Shown: positions 14,930 through 58,331 of the stretch, one piece after another
Layout: each line of letters starts with the position of its first letter
Position numbering within the stretch: position 1 is the first letter of the stretch
From: Eledone cirrhosa
Lineage: Eukaryota
Assembly: GCA_964016885.1 (NCBI GenBank)
Contig: OZ024743.1
Location: 263,252,001 to 263,316,000, forward strand
Length of the DNA stretch: 64,000 nucleotides
Reading direction: 5' to 3'
The notes under the pieces: model-generated
Database searches by the model: none
The model's input: the letters and a program-made list of their open reading frames with translations, nothing else
Told to the model about the DNA's origin: nothing
Made by a program: the position numbers and the translations under genes

Positions 14930-17900
14930 AATATTGCCAGAATTAATAACAGAACACACTTAGAATGGTTGAATAAGAAAAAACTAGAAGAAAGGAAAAT
15001 AGAATATTCTCAAAAATACCCAGATAACATCAACAATATCCGTATGACTGATGTAAAACTACCGGAAGAATTTACCAATGACCACACAGTAAATATTTAT
15101 GGGAACACTTTAATCAGTGAACAAGAACAACAAATCCTGCAGCTACCACCAAAATTTGCCATCTACAAAAAGATTAACCCTATTGAGTGCAAAACGGAGC
15201 TGGAAAAGTGTTTAACAAAAATACGCTGAAAAATATGCAAAAGTAAACAACAACAACAGCTATACGGACAACAACAACAATAATAACGGTAGTAGTAATA
15301 TAAACAATAACTCTGAGTATAGAAATAACAGCTATAATAGTCATAACAATAACAATAGCAGGAGAGTGAGAAATAGTAATAGTGGTAATAATTTTAACGA
15401 TAGACAGAACAACAACAACAACCACAATAATAATAATAATAGAAACATTAACTACAGACAGAACAGCAGCGACCACAGTAGTAATAACGGTAACAATACG
15501 AATAACAACAACAACAACCACAGTGGTAATAATAGAAATAATACATGTAGCAACATTAATGATAGACACAACAAAAACAAGAAACATAATAAAAGTAACA
15601 ACCACAATGGTAGAAATAACAGTAACAACAACAATAACGGTGAAGAAAACAACAATCACAGCAACAATACATCTAGCAATCATAACAATAATAATAATGC
15701 TAATGATAGGAACAACAACAACCACCATAATAACAATAATAGCAACACACACAACTATGACGATAGATATAATGACAACCCCTTAGAGAAACTATTCTTC
15801 AACCCAGCTGACAAAACATATAAGATGGGTAATATCTATCCTACGAGGTTACCCTTTAATAAAAGAGTTTGCATACCACATCAAATAGAGGACGAGACAG
15901 AGGCACAGTTCACCATAGCTAGAAATAAGATTAGACAAATAGTAGACAGGTATACTAAGAGACAGAGCAGACCAGAGGCCCAACAACTTGGGAAGAAACC
16001 TGTAGAAGGCTTGGTTAGCCTTAAGCAGCGTACAAGGGATGGTGAGGTAGTATGTCTACCCACGGATAAGTCTGGTAGGATGTCAATAGATAGCATGCCG
16101 AACTACATCAAGGCTATGCAACCCCACATCACCAATACGAGCGAAATTGCACAGCAAATACATGATGGGAGAGAGAAAATCCTCAACGTTCACATGATGA
16201 TGTGGACCGACATCCTAATGCCAAGCAGACGCACTGCCAACAACTTCCAGGCGTCTAACAATGGCATACCACCCTTGTATGGGCTCCGCAAAGACCACAA
16301 GACAGTCGACGACTCGACAACAGGACCATCAACATGACCCGTATGCGGAGCAAATATAGCTAGCAACTACAGGATCTCCTACTTCCTCTCAATGGTTATA
16401 CGCCCCATAATCAAGATGTCCCCAGATGTATGTGACGGTACAGAGGACCTCCTCAGCAGAATCAGTGAGTGCAACAAAAACAGGAACCTATCCAACTGCA
16501 TAATAGGCAGCATGGATGTGGTATCACTGTACCCATCCATTAACATTGATTTTGCTGTGGGAAAATGTGTGGAGATGATCATTGAGAGTGAGGTGGAGTT
16601 CTGCGACGTCGACACAGATGAACTGAGCCTCCTACGTAGACTTACCTACGACACTGATTATCTAGACAGTCATGACCTTAGACGTGTCTGCCCAGTAGAC
16701 CCATAAGAGGTAGATCCCCCACCATAACCTCAATGGCTAAAAAGACTCCCATGGGAAGGTGGATTGGGTGGACTAAAGCAGGTAAGAAAAATGGTTGCAC
16801 ATGCAATAGAGGCTAGTATCAAATCTACCCTAAAGGGCCACATATTCAAGTTCAACGAGAAGATCTACACCCAAAATGAGGGAGCAGCCATTGGCGTCAG
16901 CATAGCTGGTGACGTTGCCAACCTTTTTATGGTATGGTGGGAAAGGAGACTTAAAGATCTCCTTGATGAGAGCTCCATAGACCTCATCATGTACTCTCGT
17001 TACGTAGACGATATCAATATAGTTATAAGAAAATCCCCACAAAATAGCACTAACAAGTTTGATTTAGAACGTAGCACAATGGAAAGCATCCAGCAGATAG
17101 CTAATTCCATACACCAGAGTATAACTGTAACTATCGACTACCCTTGCAAACACCCTAACAATAGACTACCTGTATTAGACGCGGAACTCTGGATTAACAC
17201 TATAGACGAGAGAGCCCAAATTCTCCACTCACACTATGCTAAACCCATGGCCTCCAAATACCTGATACTCAAAAACTCAGCAATGTCCAGTAGTGCCAAG
17301 TTTAATATTCTGATCGCAGACTTGGTACGAGTGATGAAGAACGTGTCCCGCATGTGCGACCCAACAGAAATGGAAAGACACATCCAACACTTCATCAACC
17401 GGATGCAGTTCTCTGGCTACAACCAAAGAGACAGAGTCAGAGTATACGAAGGAGCCACGGAGAAGTATAAGACCCTCATAGAACTGGACATGAAAGGAAT
17501 TTGCCCATTATACAGGAGCAAATCATGGAATAGCTTAGATAGGGCTAGACATAAGATAGGGAAAGCCACCTCATGGTACGACAACCAGAGATACCAGTGT
17601 CATGTTTGTGGACGCTACCCCTGGAGGGAAATTAGCTAACCGGTGTAGAAAGGCCCTGAGAAAGACCCACTTAAAGATCAAGGTGGTAGAAAAGCCAGGA
17701 ACCACCATAAAATCCCTGATCAGCAAAACCTACCCTTTTAAGAAAACCCACTGTACTAATAGGAAATGTATCATATGTAAGGTAAATCCCCGGATAAACT
17801 GTAAAACTAGAAACGTCGTCTATAGCATAAGATGTACTGAGGGTACTTGCAGAAACATGACAACAACATACATAGGCGAGACAGCTTGTAGCATAGGTGA

Positions 17901-28700: not shown

Positions 28701-28903
28701 TCATTATTACTTTTAATCACAAATTCTACTCTAACTCTACAACTGTTCCTAACTTCATTATTTCTAACATGTTGATAGATGACATATATGTACTTTATTT
28801 ACCACAATGTTAAAAGCCTTACTTGGACAAAAAAAAAAGAATAAATATTTGACTCTACTTGACGTCTTGAGTACTTTATTCCGTTTCTGTTATTTTGGTA
28901 TCC

Positions 28904-28961
<58 letters not shown>

Positions 28962-28976
28962 GAAAATATTTCAGAT

Positions 28977-30506
28977 GTGGCACAAAAAATTATAAACGCC
29001 AAACAATACATAACTCAAGGGGAAAATGGTATTTTATCGGTAAAAATGCCTCAAGAACTCACCAAAGACATTGAAAGTCGGACGGTCGTTTTCCGCACCA
29101 TCAACAACATTTCTAAAAAACCTCAACAGCCAACACAAACAGAAATCAAAGCAGTACTTACAGAAGTACTTAATGAAACCACTTTCATAAGAAGAGACAG
29201 ACTGTATGGAAGCCTAGCGATTATTATGAAGAACGAATCGGCGGCAAAAAAATGTGCTTTGTCGCCGATTCGTTCGACAAATTTTACCTTTTATCCATCT
29301 TATATGGGTAAAAGAACTCAGCGCATATGGCTGGATGCAATGATGCCAGATGTGGACTACTGCTGGCTCATAACTGGCTTCATCGATCCAGCGAATGACA
29401 ACGTGATTTCCATTGGGAAAACCACAGGCAATGCGTTCAGTGGAACAGGTATAGAACTTGTAGTGCAAATGAAGCCTGAACGCATCGCCCACATACCCGA
29501 CAGAATCCTCTTAGAGGGCCACGGGTATATAAACATTAGCGTGGAGGGGAGAAGGCCGTCCTGTCATATCTGTGCAGGCAGAGGGCACCTGAAGGCGGCT
29601 TGTCCCCAACTCAACAAAAAGAAAACCCTGCTACCAACACCAGCTCCACCACCACCACAACAGATAAACAAACAACAAAACTCAGTCCCACCCAACCCGT
29701 CCCTCAGTAAAACTACACTTCCACCACAACACAAACAGTCACAACACATTACCCAAAAACAAAACACAGTCCCACCCAACCCCTCACTCAATAAAACAAC
29801 ACAACCACCGCAGCCACAACACACAACACAGTCTAACATAGTGACATCCATCTCCCCCACAAAGAAAACCAACACGGAAACATTACCAGCAAACATACCT
29901 CTTCCCTCCAACACTGAAGATAACCCAACGAATTCGGAGGAAGAAACGGAGTCCTTCAGACAGATTAAAAGGAAAAAAAGAAAACATGTGCAAAACACAC
30001 AAGGCCAAACAACCCCTACCCAAATGTCAACACAATCCAACAAAACACAAAATACCCCTCCAGCAACAAACAAAACCAAACCTGCCCCCCCCCTCTTCGA
30101 AACACTCACACCATCCGAAAAAAAGACATTACACTATACTTACATCAACAGAAACAATAATAAATTAAATGAACTCATAAACAATAATCCTTCGGTACAA
30201 ACCGAAGGTGTAAACTTTGTTTCTTCAGAAATCTACCCACATTTAAAATTAATAAAGATCCCAATGAACCTCTACCAAAAACTAAAAAAGTATTTTAAGG
30301 AGGACGTAGGACCACCCTCTGTCAAACCCATAAACCGCGTCCTACTAAAAAGCTTTCCCCCTCCCCTTCCCCTCCCCAACACAACTCCAAACACCCCAAC
30401 CCCACCACACACTGACGACCCCACACCACCACAAGACACCCCTTCACCCAACACCCCCCACTCCATGGAAATCGTGCGACCCGAACCCCGGGAAGCAGAA
30501 AGGTAG
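28977..30506 (+). CDS. LINE ORF1 (gag-like, zinc knuckle); true start uncertain
   Basis: 509-aa open frame with CHICAGRGHLKAAC (CX2CX4HX4C) and a Pro/Thr/Gln-rich C-terminal half. Confidence 0.85.
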   Translation: MAQKIINAKQYITQGENGILSVKMPQELTKDIESRTVVFRTINNISKKPQQPTQTEIKAVLTEVLNETTFIRRDRLYGSLAIIMKNESAAKKCALSPIRSTNFTFYPSYMGKRTQRIWLDAMMPDVDYCWLITGFIDPANDNVISIGKTTGNAFSGTGIELVVQMKPERIAHIPDRILLEGHGYINISVEGRRPSCHICAGRGHLKAACPQLNKKKTLLPTPAPPPPQQINKQQNSVPPNPSLSKTTLPPQHKQSQHITQKQNTVPPNPSLNKTTQPPQPQHTTQSNIVTSISPTKKTNTETLPANIPLPSNTEDNPTNSEEETESFRQIKRKKRKHVQNTQGQTTPTQMSTQSNKTQNTPPATNKTKPAPPLFETLTPSEKKTLHYTYINRNNNKLNELINNNPSVQTEGVNFVSSEIYPHLKLIKIPMNLYQKLKKYFKEDVGPPSVKPINRVLLKSFPPPLPLPNTTPNTPTPPHTDDPTPPQDTPSPNTPHSMEIVRPEPREAER

Positions 30507-30539
30507 GTCTCTACACTCTCCTTTGGCTTTGCCGCCCAC

Positions 30540-33500
30540 ATGGATGTGTTAAGAGTAGGATGTTTGAATGCACGTGGCCTGGGCTCAACTTGGAAGCAAG
30601 CAAAGCTTCTAAATGACCTCAGGTCACGGGGTATAAATGTAATGGTTATCTGTGAGACTCGGATCAGCGTCGTGCGGCAGCTGGCCCCTACCTTCGATGA
30701 CTTTGAGGTTCATGCATCTCTCTGTCAACCTGGAGGTGGGGGTGGGGTTGTCGTACTGCTGGAAAAACACCTGGGTCTCGCCGTACAGGTTGTTCACTCG
30801 GACCCGGAGGGTCGTTTGTTGGTGCTAGACGTTGGCAGTAGTGAAGGTGCGGCCTTGAGACTGGTCGCCGTCTACTCCCCTTTCGGAGCTGAACGGCCCG
30901 ACTTCTTCCAGCGTTTGGAGACTTTTCTGGGAACGTCGCGTTCCCTGCTTCTAGCGGGGGATTGGAATGACATCCTAGATGCACGTTGGGACTATGCAGG
31001 AGCATGTCCTAATAGAGGGGGGTGTAACAGCCTCAAGGGGTTACTCGACCGTTTTAACTTGGTCGATAGATATCGACTAGATTTTCCAACTGTGCCAACC
31101 TGAACTTGGACGAACCACAGTGGTCAATCTAGATCGTACTTAGATAGATTCTTAGTTAGAAGTAAGGATAGGGACATATTAAGCTGTCCAGAAATGCTCA
31201 CGGTTGGCTATACGGATCAAAAATTAGTGACCTGCGTAGTCAATCTCGAGAAAACACATAAACAGGGTCCCGGTTACTGGAACCTTAATTTGTCTTTACC
31301 GGCAAAAGAGACTTACAGAAACCGGATTAGCAGATTAGTTAAGGAGAGGTTTACGGGTGCAATCGTCAACAACCGATGGTGGGCATCTCTCAAAAGAGAG
31401 ATTAGAACAGAATCAATAAGTTATAGCAAGATGTTAGCTGCCGATAGGAATAGAAACGAGAAAGAATTAACAGGTAAATTAGAAGAGGCAATCAAGAGCG
31501 AAGATGTGGCCAGAGTGCTGGCATCGAGGACGGCCTTGAACCAGTTTTTCGATGCAAAGCACGAAGGCTGCGTCATTCGAAGTAAAATACGTGCTCTAGG
31601 TAATGAGGGGGCCAAAGCCGTTGGCTGGGCCCGCGTGACAGAAGCTAAGAGTGGAAATCGATCCACCCTCCGGTCTTTGCAAGACGAGGATGGACGGGTG
31701 ATCCGGGAGCCTAAGCAGATGTGCGAGGCCTTTCAAAGGCACTTTGCCCGATTATTCGGGGGAGGCGAGGGTCCGGGCGGGGACGTGGATTTCGGTCCAT
31801 ACCTCGACGGCCTGCCGCGTCTCTCGAGCGAAGAGGCAGAGTCCTGCGAGGGACCAATCTCGGCTGATGAGATCGGGGATGCGCTGAGCCAATGCAGCAG
31901 ACGCAAATCTCCAGGTCTCGATGGTATACCTTACGAACTTTATTTAGCAGTGCCGGTCTTCTTCTCCGAACTCCTCGAAGCGGTCTACTGCAATTGGCAG
32001 CAGAACGGGAGAATTCCTTGTTCTGTAGCCAAGGGCGTAGTCTCGCTGGTGAGGAAGGACGAGAACAAGGGTGATAGTATAAATAATTTTCGGCCCATAA
32101 CCCTGCTAAACACAGAGTTAAAGATTTTGGCCAAGGTTTTAGCAAAGAGGTTGGCGCTTGTCGTGGGTGGCCTGGTGGGAGATGCGCAGACATGTGCTAT
32201 CCCATCAAGGTCCATTCACGATAACCTCCACCTCATGCGATACATCATAGAGAGGGTTGGCAACAAACCCGGCTTCGGTGGGGCCCTGATCAACTTGGAT
32301 CAGTCTAAGGCCTTCGATAGGGTCGACCATGGTTACCTGGATGCGGTGCTAGCGGCGGCTGGGTTCGGTCCTGTTTTCAGAGACTGGATCACTGCCTTAC
32401 ATAGCAACCACATCTTTTCTAGGATCAAGGTGAACGGCTACCTTTCGAAGCCGTTCGAAATCACACGATCCATTTGACAGGGGTGCCCTCTCTCCTCCCA
32501 TCTGTACGTATTGACTCTCGAGCCTTTACTGAGGAAGTTGGAGTTGTTGCAGGGTATCCCCCTGGAACCAGGATTGAGCAAAGCGGTGTCGGCCTACGCC
32601 GATGACGTAACAGTAATGGTATCGACCGACTCGGAGATCGAGGCGATCGGTACCTTACTGGAGGATTACGAAAGGTTGTCAGGAGCGAAACTGAACCGGG
32701 AAAAATCCATCGGGCTGCAACTCGGAACGTGGAGAGGCAGACCGATGCCTCCCGACGGTGTCGTCGGACACTGGACGGAGGGCCCGGTGAAGTTGCTTGG
32801 GGTCTGGTTTGGACCGGACCTCCAGGTGGAAAAGAACTGGGACGAGGTTACGAACAAGGTGTTTGCACTAACCCAGAAATGGGCCAAGTGTAAGCTGTCC
32901 CTAAAAGGTCGGGCGGAGGTGGCGAACATTTACATAGCGTCCGTCACTTACTACCGCCTGACTGTCGTGCCTTGCCCTAAAGAAACACTCACCACCATGG
33001 AACGCATGCTCTTCCAATTTCTTTGGAAGAAGCGCCCTCCTATGGTGAGAAGATCCATCTGCTGCCAACAACCTTCGAAAGGAGGACTGGGGATGCCGTG
33101 GTTGATGATGCGTAGGCACGCATTAAGGCTACGGCACCTACAGGTATTCCTCACTGGTCAACCGGTGTGGGCTCCGTTCGTGAAACGAGCCTTTCCGAGA
33201 CTCGTCTCGCTCACCGAGCTGCAGTCCTGGGTCAAGCAAAGATCCGGAAAACTGGGAGACTGGCACACTGGGTGTGCCCAGGCGCTCATGGCTCTCTGGC
33301 AAGCGGGCCAGGCCATCGGTGGAGAATCCACCTCATCATTCTATAGAGGGCTGGTGGCTAGCAGGGGCGATGACACCCTTGGAGAGTCGCTGGACATGGA
33401 AGAGGACGAACTGGCCAGCCTGTTCGGTAGGACTTTCGGCCCGGGACCAATGGACAACTTCCAGAAGTCACTAGCCTGGCAGTGCTACCGGGGTCTCTAC

Positions 33501-33976
33501 CCGTTCGAGAGAGGCTCTACAGACACGGGCGCCCGGGCAGGGATCCCTCGAAAAAGTTTTGCCCTAGATGCGTGCGTCACGAAGAATCCGTTGCGCACGT
33601 ATTGGTGCAATGTCCGGGCGTGGCTGATCTGTGGGGCTACGTCGAACGACTGCTGTCGCGGGTGGCGCCGATTCGATTGACCGCCGAGTCCGTGATGACA
33701 ATCAAGCCGCCTCCCCTCTTCACAAAGGAAGCGAAGGCGGTTTTTCTGTGCGTAATAGCCATGTTGAAAGAGGTTGTTTGGTGGACACGATTGAAAGGTC
33801 TGAGGTCAGGCAACTTCCTCTCTGGCCATAGTCTGGTCTACTTCTTCCGATATCACTTCGGAAGAAGGATAAGAATGGAGAGAGAGGTGCTTGGCCACAG
33901 GCAGTTTTATGAAAGGTGGGTGATAGTGGCGAGAATGGCTCGTGTAAATGGGCCTTCTCTGTATACCATCCTGTAG
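30540..33976 (+). pseudogene. LINE ORF2 (APE endonuclease plus reverse transcriptase) with two in-frame TGA stops and a frameshift
   Basis: LNARGL, GDWN, SYLDR, KSPGLDG, FRPITLLN, DQSKAFDRV, QGCPLS, AYADD and CPRC..HVL..C. Stops fall at 31101 (PT*TW) and 32475 (SI*QG), with a frameshift near 33490. Confidence 0.92.
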
Positions 33977-51685: not shown

Positions 51686-51688
<3 letters not shown>

Positions 51689-52058
51689 GAAAATTGAACG
51701 GAAATAAAACAGAGAGGCAGTACAAACAAAGGTTTATTAATTTCACGCCCTTGAGAGTGGGGTGGTGGTGGGGAACGACGTTTCGGGCATAAGCCCTTCT
51801 TCAGGTGAAAAGTGTGTGGGAAGAGAGTTCAAAGGGTGTGTAGAGGAGTGGTGGAGAGACATATAGCAAAAAGGGGGTGAGAGGAAACGGTGCAAATGAA
51901 ATTAAAAATAAAGGCATGATCAAAATAAAATTAAAATAGGGTAAAACAGGTGGTGGAAGGGTGTGGGGCATGTAGGGGTGGTGACGCGTGGAGTGGGGAG
52001 AGGGAGAAGGGGTGTCCGAGCGGGGAGGGCTGAAGGTGGTGTGTGTGTGTAGGTGTAC

Positions 52059-52091
<33 letters not shown>

Positions 52092-55000
52092 AAAGCAAGG
52101 GTTGGGGGAAGAACGGGGTTGCATGTTCAGGAAGAGGTGTGTGTGGGGTGGGGTGTAGGTCGGAGTGTGTGTACGTGTGTGGATAGAGGGGTGGGGGGAG
52201 AGGATTCCGGAGGCTGAATGTGTAAATATGTGGTGGCACGCACGTGTGTGTGTGGTGTTTATGCGTGTTGTGGATGTAGGTGGCGTGTGGGGGAAAAAAT
52301 GTTGGGTGTGTGTGTGTGGTGTGAGTCATAAAGGTAATTCTGTAAAAAGAAGTGGTGGAATGCTGAGTAAAATCCTGGGATGCGGTAGATTCTCGGGATC
52401 AAGGTTCACATATGTGTAATCCGTGAAGAGATTGGTCGAAAGAGGGGAGATGTGGGGTGCGCGCGCAACAGGAAGTGGTCAGAGGGTCAAGGCAGGAGGA
52501 GTGTTGTGTGTCTGTGTGTGCGGGGAGGTGGTCAGAGGGCATAACAGCAGTAGGGTAGAATGGTAAGTGAAGGTGTGTCAGTGTGTGCGGTGGACAGGGG
52601 AGAGGATGGGTAGGTGTGAAAGTTGGAGTGAGAGGGGGTGTGTGTGTATTAGTAGAGGCGTTAGTGGGATGAGTGAGTGTTTGAGAAAGGGTGTGGGTGG
52701 AGCGGGGAGAGAAGGGTCTGGGGGGCCGATGGAGGGAGTGTAGTGTACTGGTGTGTGTGTGTGGTGAAGGGGGTGTTAGTGGGTGTTAGTATACAGGAGG
52801 TGGAGAAAGGGTTGAATGCTGGTGTGAGTGGGGGTCAGTGGTGGTAGGGTGTGTAGAGTGGGTGGTGTAAGAGGGTGTGTGTGTACGTGTGCGTAGGGTT
52901 TGGGGTGTTAGTGATGTTAGTTGCGTGTAGGGTGGGTGGTGTAAGTGGGTGTGTGTGTTCGTGTGCTTGGGGTCAGGGGGTGTTAGTGATGTTAGTTGCG
53001 GGGTGGTGGGGTGGATGTGTGGGGGTGAGGGTTAGTGGTGGTAGTAGGCTGTGTGTTTAGTGTGAGCGCGTGTATATATGTACCGGTGGGTGTGTGTGTG
53101 TGATAAGGAGGGGGGGAGAAGAAGGGAGAGATGTTAGTATGTTAGTTGGGGAAGGGTGGTCGGATGTGCGGTGGAAGTGTTAGTATTGTTAGTTGTGGGG
53201 TGGGCGGTGAAAAGGAGGGGTGTGTTAGTGGGGGATATGTGTGGGGGATATGTGTAGGGGGGGGGGGGGGCGGTTGAAGGCTAAAGGAATAAGGGTGGGG
53301 AGTTCAGGCCGGGGGGAGTGTGGGTCTGTAAGATGAAGATGGTTCGTTGTTCGACTCTTAGGAGATTGGTGGGTGTTCCGTGGCATTGGAGTAGGCCACA
53401 GACTGTGAGATGATGTGCGGAATGTCCAGGGGCACCAAAGTGGCGGGCGATGGGGGAACTACCACCGAGACGAATATCCCGGAGGTGCTCAGTAAATCTG
53501 TCCGCCAGGCGACGTCCAGTCTGTCCGACGTAAGACGCGCTGAACGGAGTGCAGCGAAGTACGTAGACTAGGTTGGAGGAGGTGCAGCGGAAGGCATGCC
53601 GGACAGAGAGAGAGTGGCCGTTGGGACCCTGGAAGGTGGTGGTGTTGGTGATGTGGGGACAGGTGTTGCAGCAGGGCCTAGAACAGGGAAAGGAACCGGG
53701 GGGGGGAGTAGGGAGCTGTGGACGAGGAGGGTGCGGAGATTGCGTGCGCGTTTGAAGGAGGGGAGTGGTGGGGCTGGGAAGATGTGGGAGGTGGAGGGGT
53801 CGGACTGGAGGCGTCGGAAGAGGTGGAGGATGGTGCGGTGGAGGGGTATGGTGGAGGGGTGGTAGGTGATGGGGAAGGAGAGACGGTGGGTGGGTGTGCG
53901 GTGGCGTGGGGTGAGGGTGATGGAGCGGTGGACAGCACGGGCGCGGGTGAGAGCGGTGTGGACGAGAGAAGGGGTAACCTCTGCGGATGAAATGGCTGAC
54001 TAGGGAAAAGGCCTGGGTCTCAAAGTCGGCATCTCGGCTACAGAGGCGGTGGATCCTGAGGAGTTGGGAGTAGGGAATAGAGTGTTTAGTGTATGTGGGG
54101 TGGGAAGAGGTGAAGTCGAGGTAGGAGTGGGAGTCGGTGGGTTTGAAGAAGGCGGAGGTGACGAGGGAGTGGTGGGAGGGGTCGAAGGCGACGGAGATGT
54201 CTAAGAAGTGGACGTGAGTGGTGGAGATAGAGGTGGTGAAGTGAAGGGAGGGGTGGAAGGAGCAGAAGAAGGAGAGAAAGGAGTCGAGCTATTCTCGGGT
54301 AAGGGTCGTGGCTCCGATACAGTCGTCGATGTAACGACCGTACAGTTCGGGCGTGGGGCCGGTGTACTGGGCAAAGATTTGGGCCTCAACATGGCCAACA
54401 AAAAGGTTGGCATAGTTTGGGCCCATTCTTGTACCCATGGCTACCCCCGTGACCTGTTGGTAAAACTCACCCGAGAAGGAGAAACAGTTGAGGGTGAGGA
54501 CCAGCTCGGCGAGGCGAAGGAGAGTGGGGGTGGAGGGAATGGGGGAGGGGCGAAGGTCGAGGTAGTGTTTGAGGGCGCGTAGGCCGTCGGCGTGGGGGAT
54601 GACGGTATAGAGGGACTTGATGTCTAGGGTGAAGAGGAAGGGCTGTGGGCTGGGTGGGTAGGTGAAGGATTCGAAAAGGCGCAGGGCGTGGTTGGTGTCG
54701 GAGATGTGGGAGGGGAGGCTGGTGACAAGGGGTCGAGGATGGAGTCGAGAAAGGCGGAGATGAGTTCGGTGGGGCAGTTGCAAGCGGAGACGATGGGGCG
54801 GCCGGGGTTTTCGGGTTTGTGGAGTTTGGGGAAGAAGTAGATGATGGGGGTGCGGGGGGATGAGCTGGGAAGCGTTGGGGGGGGGAGGATAACAGACAAG
54901 GTGTTGGATGGTGGAGGAAACTTGTTGTTGGTAGAGGGGTGTGGGATCGGAGGGTAGAGGGCGGTAGAAGAGGGGGTTATGGAGCTGCGTGAGGGGTTCT

Positions 55001-55168
55001 GCCGTGTAGAGGTCTGCGCGCCACACCACCACGGCGCCTCCCTTGTCCGCCTGTTTGATGACGATGTCATCTCGGCTACGGAGGGAGCAGAGAGCGAGGA
55101 GTTCGCCCCGTGTGATGTCATTCCGTTTGGAACGGCGGCGGAAGTCGAAACGATTTACGGCGCTACGG
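51686..55168 (-). mobile_element. Penelope/Poseidon-type PLE, 5'-truncated and frameshifted
   Basis: ADKGGAVVVW, PGRPIVSACNCPTELIS, LDIKSLYT, GVAMGTRMGPNYANLFVG, RYIDD and GIY-YIG CTSSNLVY..YVGQTGRRLADRFTEH, with a stop near 53281. A long C-rich 3' UTR carries an HHR. Confidence 0.92.
51774..51807 (-). ncRNA. Minimal PLE-type HHR
   Basis: cac-CTGAAGA-a gggc ttat gccc-GAAA-cg-TC-gtt. Stem III is the palindrome ACGT, and stem I is very short. Confidence 0.7.
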
Positions 55169-55247
55169 AACGAAGGAGGTGTGGTAAGGAACTAAATGGA
55201 CCGTAACGCACCAGAGTACTCAATACTTTGGGTAGTAGAGTGGGTAA

Positions 55248-55361
55248 TAGGAAAAAGTTTAACCCCGACGGCAGAGCTCAAGCAATTTCGATGGCTATTT
55301 CTGGAGTCCAGAAATAGCCGTCGAAACGGCTTGAGCTCTGCCGTCGGGGTTAAACTTTTTC

Positions 55362-55585: not shown

Positions 55586-55622
<37 letters not shown>

Positions 55623-55780
55623 TTGGAATAAATGCTCTGAAATAGCGATATATATGTGAATATAGACATAGAATATTCGAAAATATTCTGTATGTTTATA
55701 ATAAACATTTTGAAGACCTAATCGCTATAGAATAGAATACGTCACGTATTACAATTAGATTCTCGATAAAAGCAAGGGAA

Positions 55781-55823
55781 GTAATCTACGCGTTTCATTC
55801 TCGTTAGAAATCATCAGGACTAC
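55781..55823 (-). ncRNA. Type I HHR (repeated at 56091, 56401, 56711 and 57021)
   Basis: gtagtc-CTGATGA-t ttct aacg agaa t-GAAA-cgcg-TA-gattac. Stem III is the palindrome ACGCGT. Confidence 0.88.
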
Positions 55824-57281
55824 ATATCCAGTGCTTTTATCGAGAATGACACAGCTAGAGACTTATAGAATACTTAGCTGTGTACAGGAACTGGTTTGAC
55901 AGAGCGGTTGCCGGTCCGGCAGAAATTAGAAATTGGAATAAATGCTCTGAAATAGCGATATATATGTGAATATAGACATAGAATATTCGAAAATATTCTG
56001 TATGTTTATAATAAACATTTTGAAGACCTAATCGCTATAGAATAGAATACGTCACGTATTACAATTAGATTCTCGATAAAAGCAAGGGAAGTAATCTACG
56101 CGTTTCATTCTCGTTAGAAATCATCAGGACTACATATCCAGTGCTTTTATCGAGAATGACACAGCTAGAGACTTATAGAATACTTAGCTGTGTACAGGAA
56201 CTGGTTTGACAGAGCGGTTGCCGGTCCGGCAGAAATTAGAAATTGGAATAAATGCTCTGAAATAGCGATATATATGTGAATATAGACATAGAATATTCGA
56301 AAATATTCTGTATGTTTATAATAAACATTTTGAAGACCTAATCGCTATAGAATAGAATACGTCACGTATTACAATTAGATTCTCGATAAAAGCAAGGGGA
56401 GTAATCTACGCGTTTCATTCTCGTTAGAAATCATCAGGACTACATATCCAGTGCTTTTATCGAGAATGACACAGCTAGAGACTTATAGAATACTTAGCTG
56501 TGTACAGGAACTGGTTTGACAGAGCGGTTGCCGGTCCGGCAGAAATTAGAAATTGGAATAAATGCTCTGAAATAGCGATATATATGTGAATATAGACATA
56601 GAATATTCGAAAATATTCTGTATGTTTATAATAAACATTTTGAAGACCTAATCGCTATAGAATAGAATACGTCACGTATTACAATTAGATTCTCGATAAA
56701 AGCAAGGGAAGTAATCTACGCGTTTCATTCTCGTTAGAAATCATCAGGACTACATATCCAGTGCTTTTATCGAGAATGACACAGCTAGAGACTTATAGAA
56801 TACTTAGCTGTGTACAGGAACTGGTTTGACAGAGCGGTTGCCGGTCCGGCAGAAATTAGAAATTGGAATAAATGCTCTGAAATAGCGATATATATGTGAA
56901 TATAGACATAGAATATTCGAAAATATTCTGTATGTTTATAATAAACATTTTGAAGACCTAATCGCTATAGAATAGAATACGTCACGTATTACAATTAGAT
57001 TCTCGATAAAAGCAAGGGAAGTAATCTACGCGTTTCATTCTCGTTAGAAATCATCAGGACTACATATCCAGTGCTTTTATCGAGAATGACACAGCTAGAG
57101 ACTTATAGAATATTTCGAATATTCTATGTCTATATTCACATATATATCGCTATTTCAGAGCATTTATTCCAATTTCTAATTTCTGCCGGACCGGCAACCG
57201 CTCTGTCAAACCAGTTCCTGTACACAGCTAAGTATTCTATAAGTCTCTAGCTGTGTCATTCTCGATAAAAGCACTGGATAT

Positions 57282-57324
57282 GTAGTCCTGATGATTTCTA
57301 ACGAGAATGAAACGCGTAGATTAC
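57282..57324 (+). ncRNA. Type I HHR (repeated at 57592 and 57902)
   Basis: Same motif on the plus strand, enclosed by the 16-bp stem attctcgataaaagca/tgcttttatcgagaat. Confidence 0.88.
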
Positions 57325-58092
57325 TTCCCTTGCTTTTATCGAGAATCTAATTGTAATACGTGACGTATTCTATTCTATAGCGATTAGGTCTTCAAAATGT
57401 TTATTATAAACATACAGAATATTTTCGAATATTCTATGTCTATATTCACATATATATCGCTATTTCAGAGCATTTATTCCAATTTCTAATTTCTGCCGGA
57501 CCGGCAACCGCTCTGTCAAACCAGTTCCTGTACACAGCTAAGTATTCTATAAGTCTCTAGCTGTGTCATTCTCGATAAAAGCACTGGATATGTAGTCCTG
57601 ATGATTTCTAACGAGAATGAAACGCGTAGATTACTTCCCTTGCTTTTATCGAGAATCTAATTGTAATACGTGACGTATTCTATTCTATAGCGATTAGGTC
57701 TTCAAAATGTTTATTATAAACATACAGAATATTTTCGAATATTCTATGTCTATATTCACATATATATCGCTATTTCAGAGCATTTATTCCAATTTCTAAT
57801 TTCTGCCGGACCGGCAACCGCTCTGTCAAACCAGTTCCTGTACACAGCTAAGTATTCTATAAGTCTCTAGCTGTGTCATTCTCGATAAAAGCACTGGATA
57901 TGTAGTCCTGATGATTTCTAACGAGAATGAAACGCGTAGATTACTTCCCTTGCTTTTATCGAGAATCTAATTGTAATACGTGACGTATTCTATTCTATAG
58001 CGATTAGGTCTTCAAAATGTTTATTATAAACATACAGAATATTTTCGAATATTCTATGTCTATATTCATATATATATATATATATATATAAT

Positions 58093-58331
58093 AAAAGTAT
58101 GTGTTCCTACATGTAAATAATGCACAGAGGGATACAAGTATAGTCCGCCGTATAGTAAGAACAGTGAATTTTTTGAAGTTTATTTTAAAATATTTTCTTT
58201 ATTTGCTTTCCCTTGATTTTATATGTTCTGGCTTGTTAATTTATTAACTTTCCATTGAACCGAACTGGCATACGGTCGGACTATACTTGCATCCCTATGT
58301 GTATTATTTACATGTAGGAACACATACTTTT
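58093..58331. repeat. Inverted repeat (about 60-bp arms)
   Basis: aaaagtatgtgttcctacatgtaaataat... / ...tattatttacatgtaggaacacatactttt. Confidence 0.75.

What the first reader, a model, noticed from the sequence alone, without database searches (positions are those of the whole stretch)
55615..58068. Near-perfect 310-bp hammerhead 'retrozyme' array that flips orientation mid-array
Seen in the sequence: about 4.8 head-to-tail 310-bp units, then about 3.1 units inverted, with (TA)n on both sides and no ORF. I spotted only one substitution between units (near 56399). Each unit has an intact type I HHR (stem I gtagtc/gattac, CUGAUGA, stem II ttct/agaa, GAAA, ACGCGU, GUA site) inside a 16-bp outer stem. 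The unit also has further hairpins (acacagcta/tagctgtgt, aatacgt/acgtatt, agaatatt/aatattct). The inversion joins at an AGAATA microhomology with one T lost. Established: metazoan non-LTR retrozymes are short HHR tandem repeats that yield circular RNAs and are thought to be mobilised by PLEs. Inference: this is a very recent rolling-circle reverse transcript of a 310-nt circRNA with a strand switch, so transcription from either side would release monomers. I do not know of this family having been described in cephalopods.
Basis: partly seen in the sequence, partly recalled or inferred. Interest (0 to 1): 0.9.

Follow-up and report, generated by a model that had tools for sequence, protein, structure and literature searches.

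The report
Hammerhead retrozyme with Penelope insertion footprint
This is one of well over a thousand young insertions of a 310-base repeat carrying a hammerhead ribozyme motif, nearly always pasted into TA repeats as two back-to-back arms with fixed outer ends, a footprint that likely records a Penelope-type retrotransposon enzyme copying one RNA circle round and round from both sides of a DNA break.

Summary
The array is real as described (4.83 + 3.08 units, one substitution, 8 hammerheads, (TA)n flanks). The flip is not an oddity of this locus but the family rule. About 17,000 hammerhead cores lie in the genome, with >1,200 ends at each of two fixed sites 35 nt apart. All 63 resolved two-arm insertions are head-to-head, one arm ending at each site: the inverted-copy-plus-tail footprint of Penelope-like elements (PLEs), which intact Neptune-type PLEs of this genome also show. 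The two arms share a haplotype (44/47, against 13% between loci). Private variants are fixed in every unit of both arms (14 arrays, this one included), and junctions ignore the cleavage site (5/152, 4.9 expected). Variants fixed across arrays spare the predicted RNA fold (4/31 against 50/104). Best reading: a non-LTR retrozyme whose circular RNA is likely reverse-transcribed twice from the two ends of a cut (TA)n, with the cDNAs joined by microhomology; not a strand switch. RNA, cleavage and the partner PLE are untested. The scan noted this family and footprint before on other DNA.

The parts
55590..55616 (.). left half of the (TA)n target
55615..57112 (-). left arm, 4.83 units, hammerhead-sense on the - strand; outer end at monomer position 172 (site B class; position 1 = base after the cleavage site), inner end at position 225
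55615..55656 (-). 'tail': monomer 131-172, present at the outer end of this arm and missing from the outer end of the other arm (35 nt in most copies, 42 nt here)
   Evidence: tail as described for PLEs in PMC8557442 and PMC11167929
55781..57063 (-). five type I hammerhead motifs (5' starts 57063, 56753, 56443, 56133, 55823); predicted cuts after 57027, 56717, 56407, 56097, 55787
   Evidence: covariation
56399..56399 (-). only substitution between units (monomer position 8, U>C)
55900..55900 (-). private variant G197, fixed in all 7 covered units of both arms (also 56210, 56520, 56830, 57205, 57515, 57825); T is the majority base in other arrays
57107..57113 (.). head-to-head junction of the two arms (positions 225 and 105), AGAATA microhomology with one T lost
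57113..58077 (+). right arm, 3.08 units, hammerhead-sense on the + strand; outer end at site A (position 130, running into the unit's own AUAUAUAU at 132-139 with C131 replaced by T)
57282..57944 (+). three type I hammerhead motifs (57282, 57592, 57902); predicted cuts after 57318, 57628, 57938; single-pair helix III with palindromic ACGCGU, predicted to cleave as a dimer
58069..58090 (.). right half of the (TA)n target

Best explanation
This is one young insertion of a 310-nt non-coding hammerhead repeat family (non-LTR retrozyme) that sits in (TA)n tracts as two head-to-head arms ending at two fixed sites, and it was likely made by a Penelope-like (Neptune-type) RT/GIY-YIG protein copying a single circular RNA from both ends of the cut target. 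Shown: dispersed family, invariant head-to-head polarity, A/B ends 35 nt apart, near-uniform inner junctions with microhomology or short inserts, same haplotype in both arms, private variants fixed through both arms, depletion of structure-breaking variants among those fixed across arrays, same architecture in autonomous PLEs of this genome. Inferred: (1) a multimeric transcript self-cleaves through paired hammerheads (palindromic helix III) and a host ligase closes the 310-nt monomer, whose lone hammerhead would be nearly inert; (2) the PLE protein, probably as a dimer, binds near positions 130-165, cuts both strands of (TA)n and primes one cDNA from each 3' end, at site A (helped by pairing of the target with AUAUAUAU) and site B; (3) both RTs roll round the circle for about 4-5 turns on average; (4) the two cDNA 3' ends anneal by microhomology and prime each other's second strand, giving the head-to-head junction. 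The longest arms may have grown further as DNA.
For: 17,056 family cores; 1,218 B ends and 1,245 A ends abutting (TA)n. 63 of 63 resolved two-arm insertions are A+B head-to-head; of 20 loci picked by the A end, 14 are A+B, 6 single-arm, 0 A+A; in the end-independent list 9 of 10 clusters are - then +, none + then -. End modes 130/139 and 165/167. Arms identical in 44 of 47 arrays against 274 of 2,162 cross-array pairs; private variant fixed in all units in 17 of 75 arrays, in both arms in 14 (up to 24 of 24 units); 5 of 152 inner ends within 5 nt of the cleavage site, 4.9 expected. Arm lengths correlate (rho 0.38, p 0.002, n 63). Microhomology of 2 nt or more at 25 of 36 clean junctions, 18% expected. 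Structure-breaking changes 4 of 31 fixed against 50 of 104 singletons, p 3.5e-4. PLE L210 (RT + GIY-YIG; many copies 96-98% identical) has an inverted A arm and a 35-nt tail ending CATTTTCCAAT|(TA)n (687 such ends); the retrozyme B end is CATTTATTCCAAT|(TA)n. PAc starts RT at two sites that bound the tail, extends both strands and is predicted dimeric (PMC11167929).
Against: No RNA, circle or cleavage shown. Rfam has no hit; stem II is weakly populated in the predicted monomer circle (0.13-0.15); 8 of 9 Xenopus retrozymes did not cleave in vitro (10.64898/2026.07.22.740005). No PLE pLTR homologous to the unit was found; the shared end motif is short and AT-rich, and several PLE families are candidates. 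L105 switches haplotype in register in both arms (junction unique), which one monomeric circle cannot give; L077 and L114 differ between arms. Long arms (L067, L069, L090) carry repeated minor variants, as DNA-level duplication would leave. Inner ends are slightly non-uniform (KS p 0.045). Identical arms would also result if one source locus dominated the RNA pool of a cell. 60 of the 73 first loci were picked by their B end.
Confidence: 0.72

Rival explanations
1. Same PLE double priming, but on a long uncleaved linear multimer transcribed from an older array; the ribozyme and the circle are dispensable.
For: L105: both arms begin with two units of one haplotype and go on in another, in register. 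PAc uses uncleaved RNA in vitro and needs no hammerhead activity (PMC11167929). Homogeneous parents would give homogeneous daughters.
Against: A new variant must pass a one-unit bottleneck to be fixed in all units of both arms (14 arrays), while 131 singletons stay unhomogenised. Outside L105, 0 of 76 variant positions are shared in register (weak, since most may postdate insertion). Arms would shrink each generation, yet one reaches about 45 units.
Confidence: 0.13
2. Short PLE-type head-to-head insertions were expanded afterwards into arrays by slippage, unequal exchange or gene conversion (satellite-like growth).
For: Repeated minor variants in long arms L067, L069, L090 and the block change in L077; local amplification is proposed in 10.64898/2026.07.22.740005.
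Against: 18 of 63 arrays have no internal difference. Both arms are multimeric with correlated lengths. Fixed variants avoid structure-breaking sites, which DNA turnover would not see. An arm longer than one unit still needs a repeated template.
Confidence: 0.07
3. One reading: one rolling-circle cDNA that switches strand or folds back (self-priming as proposed for PLE palindromic junctions, or L1-type twin priming).
For: Microhomology at junctions; self-priming proposed in PMC3846280; L105 in-register copying fits one arm copied from the other.
Against: No excess of near-palindromic junctions (8 of 65, 8.6 expected); A arm longer than B in 25 of 63; inner ends are not enriched at the priming sites (20 of 130, 20.1 expected), unlike L1 twin priming as I recall it.
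Confidence: 0.05
4. Assembly or fold-back read artefact.
For: Palindromic structure; no raw long reads were available.
Against: Fixed biological ends and different junctions at more than 70 loci; 8 listed contig joints linking left-arm to right-arm positions in run X3, and the unit in runs of 4 studies (one may be the assembly's own source).
Confidence: 0.01

Closest known systems
Metazoan non-LTR retrozymes (Cervera and de la Pena 2020, PMC7229834; passages, sections 14 and 17 read)
   Same: About 300-nt low-GC (35%) tandem unit, one type I hammerhead per unit, no ORF, self-paired predicted circle, thousands of copies, PLEs in the same genome. Helix III of one pair with a palindromic tetraloop as in axolotl HHR_Amex1; U.U at the base of helix II as in HHR_Amex2.
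   Different: That paper proposes PLE mobilisation from co-occurrence; the passages read give no inverted arms, fixed ends, tail or (TA)n target. Circular RNA is shown there, not here.
Li, Clavereau and Pollet 2026 (10.64898/2026.07.22.740005; parts 1-3 of 5 read, abstract to discussion)
   Same: Retrozymes as non-autonomous PLE partners.
   Different: Rests on co-occurrence and pLTR homology in vertebrates; 'tail' occurs 0 times and 'inverted' once, in a reference. Here no homologous pLTR was found but the integration footprint is.
Insertion structure of endonuclease-bearing PLEs (PMC8557442 and PMC3846280, passages; PMC11167929, parts 1-2 of 4)
   Same: Inverted 5'-truncated copy, head-to-head, 30-40-nt tail on one end only, (TA)n or AT-rich targets, two RT start sites bounding the tail.
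   Different: The cargo is a non-coding repeat, and both arms are multimers with random inner ends, so template identity and processivity of both RT starts can be read from sequence.

Membership tests
Type I hammerhead ribozyme | Core CUGANGA / GAAA / UH with three helices | tested here: met
   93.8% of cells paired and 8 of 12 pairs with double changes over 8 sequences from 3 repeat families (few independent events)
Type I hammerhead ribozyme | Match to an Rfam hammerhead model | tested here: not met
   No hit at gathering score or E<=10
Type I hammerhead ribozyme | Self-cleavage | not testable with these tools
   Indirect only: 0 of 31 fixed variants hit the core or palindrome, 5 of 104 singletons do
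Non-LTR retrozyme | Short tandem units, each with a hammerhead, low GC, no ORF | tested here: met
Non-LTR retrozyme | Dispersed, multi-locus, mobile | tested here: met
Non-LTR retrozyme | Expressed as monomeric circular RNA | not testable with these tools
   No RNA run was available; genomic signatures of a circular template
PLE-mobilised insertion | Inverted head-to-head copy with a 30-40-nt tail on one end | tested here: met
   63 of 63, 14 of 14 two-arm controls, modal offset 35 nt
PLE-mobilised insertion | AT-rich or (TA)n target | tested here: met
PLE-mobilised insertion | Homology to the pLTR of an autonomous PLE | tested here: inconclusive
   None in the loci held; only a short shared end motif with L210; PLE families were sampled, not enumerated
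PLE-mobilised insertion | Target-site duplication | not testable with these tools
   Both flanks are (TA)n; no empty allele seen
Autonomous PLE | RT + GIY-YIG ORF | tested here: not met
   Longest Met ORF 30 aa
Viroid-like RNA with ribozymes in both polarities | Ribozyme in the antisense strand | tested here: inconclusive
   No hammerhead core in the antisense unit as read directly, no Rfam ribozyme on either strand; other ribozyme classes not modelled

The most novel reading that the evidence does not exclude
Each array records a two-engine rolling circle: both RTs of one Penelope dimer run at once round the same 310-nt circRNA from the two ends of a double-strand cut, and their cDNAs prime each other. 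This would be the in vivo proof that animal retrozymes move through circles with PLE enzymes, and would explain the inverted-plus-tail structure of PLEs in general.
Probability: 0.45. Interest if true: 0.75.

Novelty: new variant of a known kind. Interest (0 to 1): 0.58.

Why it matters
That animal retrozymes use circular RNA templates and PLE enzymes is proposed but not shown, and how PLEs make inverted copies with a tail is listed as open in PMC8557442 and PMC11167929. This family gives more than a thousand young, sequence-readable events, two exact RT start sites on a 310-nt RNA, and candidate partner proteins with long open frames in the same genome: a compact in vitro test of both questions, and possibly a small cis signal for PLE-driven insertion of circular RNA.

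Tried and rejected
Rfam search: nothing. RNA runs: no RNA holder listed. G/T toggling at position 197 as a modified-base mark: dropped; only 2 of 61 loci are mixed and both were picked by likeness to the window's G allele. Conserved GCU-loop-AGC hairpin in the tail: the sequence is kept in sister families but pairs at only 0.01 in this monomer, so not claimed. Cognate PLE by pLTR homology: nhmmer over the loci held and inspection of 30 + 20 GIY-YIG loci and 12 Neptune loci found none (the output was cut in the middle). The neighbouring Neptune relic (51686-55191) has an unrelated pLTR. The 'outer' pair probabilities printed used wrong indices and are ignored; the 16-bp stem rests. L105 junction as a copy of another locus: unique. 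Internal promoter: none identified by eye. Empty allele and TSD: not resolvable across (TA)n. No structure or complex prediction was run.

Full report
Observation. Each unit has a type I hammerhead motif in a 16-bp outer stem. Rfam does not detect it, but the same layout (U.U or G-C base of helix II, loop AAN(A/G), A-palindrome-U helix III, U after stem I) recurs with compensatory changes in two other repeat families of this genome (8 sequences, 3 families). The hammerhead-sense strands point outwards from the junction. I number the monomer from the base after the predicted cut.

The family. The exact 43-nt core occurs 4,033 times and a pattern allowing the common variants 17,056 times, about 5 Mb of a 3.0-Gb genome. 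Patterns for the unit running into (TA)n at position 165/167 (site B) and at 130/139 (site A) give 1,218 and 1,245 matches, lower bounds on the number of insertions.

The flip is the rule. I mapped 73 loci (the window, 2, 10 picked by the core, 60 picked by a B end; all but the window on contig C1), holding 75 insertions: 63 two-arm A+B, 1 complex A+B, 2 two-arm cut by the fetch, 7 single-arm by the script (one abuts a gap, one has a tiny B arm) and 2 single cut by the fetch. No resolved two-arm case is A+A or B+B. As a control, 20 loci picked by an A end without the exact B pattern gave 14 A+B (2 of them overlap or duplicate earlier loci), 6 single-arm, 0 A+A. In the end-independent listing 9 of 10 clusters read - then +, none the reverse. 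A ends fall at 130 (32 of 61) or 139 (20), B ends at 165 (47 of 62, enriched by selection) or 167 (9); the window has 130 and the rarer 172, seen again. The modal offset of 35 nt is the 30-40-nt one-sided tail with inverted 5'-truncated copy described for PLEs (PMC8557442, PMC3846280, passages), which in the anole PLE is the stretch between two RT start sites, with both target strands cut and extended (PMC11167929, parts 1-2 of 4).

Junctions. Inner ends are spread round the unit (KS p 0.045, Rayleigh p 0.09) with no pile-up at the cleavage site (5 of 152, 4.9 expected), at the priming sites (20 of 130, 20.1 expected) or at palindromic phase (8 of 65, 8.6 expected), and either arm can be the longer. 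This rejects fold-back and L1-type twin priming as the general route. Of 59 junctions scored, 36 are clean, 25 of these with 2 nt or more of microhomology (18% expected), and 23 carry extra bases, as end-joining of two cDNA ends would leave.

Template. Units differ by 0.08% within arrays and 0.97% between them. With the control loci added (93 insertions), both arms have the same consensus in 44 of 47 arrays, against 274 of 2,162 cross-array pairs; 17 of 75 well-covered arrays carry a variant fixed in every unit and dominant in no other sampled array, 14 of them in both arms, the window (G197, 7 of 7) among them. 'Private' is relative to 93 of more than 1,200 loci. A variant fixed through up to 24 units in two opposite arms, while 131 singletons remain unspread, points to a one-unit bottleneck, most simply a monomeric circle. 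Arm lengths are roughly exponential (means 3.9 and 5.1 units) and correlated; one arm is about 45 units. Against: L105 changes haplotype in register in both arms, L077 and L114 differ between arms, and long arms show repeated minor variants. So linear multimers, template swaps or later DNA turnover contribute in a minority.

Selection on the RNA. Substitutions fixed in an array break a predicted pair or the core in 4 of 31 cases, singletons in 50 of 104 (Fisher p 3.5e-4; recurrent variants alone 2 of 13, p 0.036). Recurrent hammerhead variants sit at N7, loop II, the U.U position and wobble pairs. The test depends on a predicted fold. The single-pair palindromic helix III matches the axolotl motif that cleaves efficiently only as a dimer (PMC7229834, passages), so precursors would cleave and circles would be stable (inference).

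Partner. The genome holds several PLE families with RT, a cysteine linker and C-terminal GIY-YIG, which fits Neptune or Nematis as defined in PMC8557442 (no tree built). L210 has a long open frame, copies 96-98% identical, an inverted A-ended arm and a 35-nt tail ending in a motif close to the retrozyme's B end (an inverted A arm lies within 1.5 kb in 4 of 30 sampled ends). No pLTR homologous to the unit was found, so the partner is a candidate only.

Independent data. Six runs of four studies hold the unit; two give a 340-nt contig of the unit and one gives 8 listed joints between left-arm and right-arm positions. One run may be the assembly's source, and contigs show nothing on expression.

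Novelty. Retrozymes are known, the PLE link is proposed (PMC7229834; 10.64898/2026.07.22.740005) and the footprint is known for PLEs. My seven searches (six bear on this) and the texts read showed no report of the footprint on retrozymes or of a cephalopod retrozyme; the giant squid paper only counts 235 hammerheads (PMC6962438, passage), and PMC8490949 (passages) adds nothing. Subscription papers, Repbase and supplements (Figure S9 of PMC7229834, tables of the preprint) were not seen and may bear on this. The host taxon was not tested. Earlier notes of this scan describe this family and footprint elsewhere; one called the circle possible but not shown, and the haplotype, junction and selection counts here address that. 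Verdict: new variant of a known kind, interest 0.58.

Noticed in passing
window 51686-55191 (-): Broken, 5'-truncated Neptune-type PLE (RT, cysteine linker, GIY-YIG) with a minimal hammerhead near 51775-51810 and its 3' end in (TA)n; the family has full-length tandem-pLTR copies about 99% alike.
   Followed up: partly
window 3565 (+), 59401 (-), 60033 (+); L053, L061, L102, L148: Other hammerhead repeat families of about 460-500 nt with the same ribozyme layout, also head-to-head, carrying ATGCAAAT (octamer motif, recalled from snRNA and newt satellite 2 promoters).
   Followed up: partly
L114:4216-5019, L118-L137, L050:5360-5720, L106:3002-3383, L054:51-496: Older sister families (321 nt, 5% internal divergence, and more distant ones) share positions about 60-235 and similar A/B ends but carry different hammerheads, which suggests ribozyme replacement on a conserved scaffold.
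   Followed up: partly
L105:1600-8001: Both arms start with two units of one haplotype and continue in another, in register; junction unique in the genome. Unexplained.
   Followed up: partly
L090 and L288 (C1:97461509-97478000): One arm of about 45 units; two linked variants recur irregularly along it.
   Followed up: no
window 55195-55361 and 58093-58330: Small inverted-repeat insertions ending in (TA)n on either side of the array, with the same head-to-head look.
   Followed up: no
window 15216-17639 (+), 28863-33680 (+), 34675 (-): A second, divergent RT relic with PLE-like motifs; a broken LINE with endonuclease and RT; one more hammerhead-like motif with a long stem II.
   Followed up: no
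L075 and L279 (C1:56.26 Mb): The same insertion appears twice across an assembly gap, probably a false duplication.
   Followed up: no
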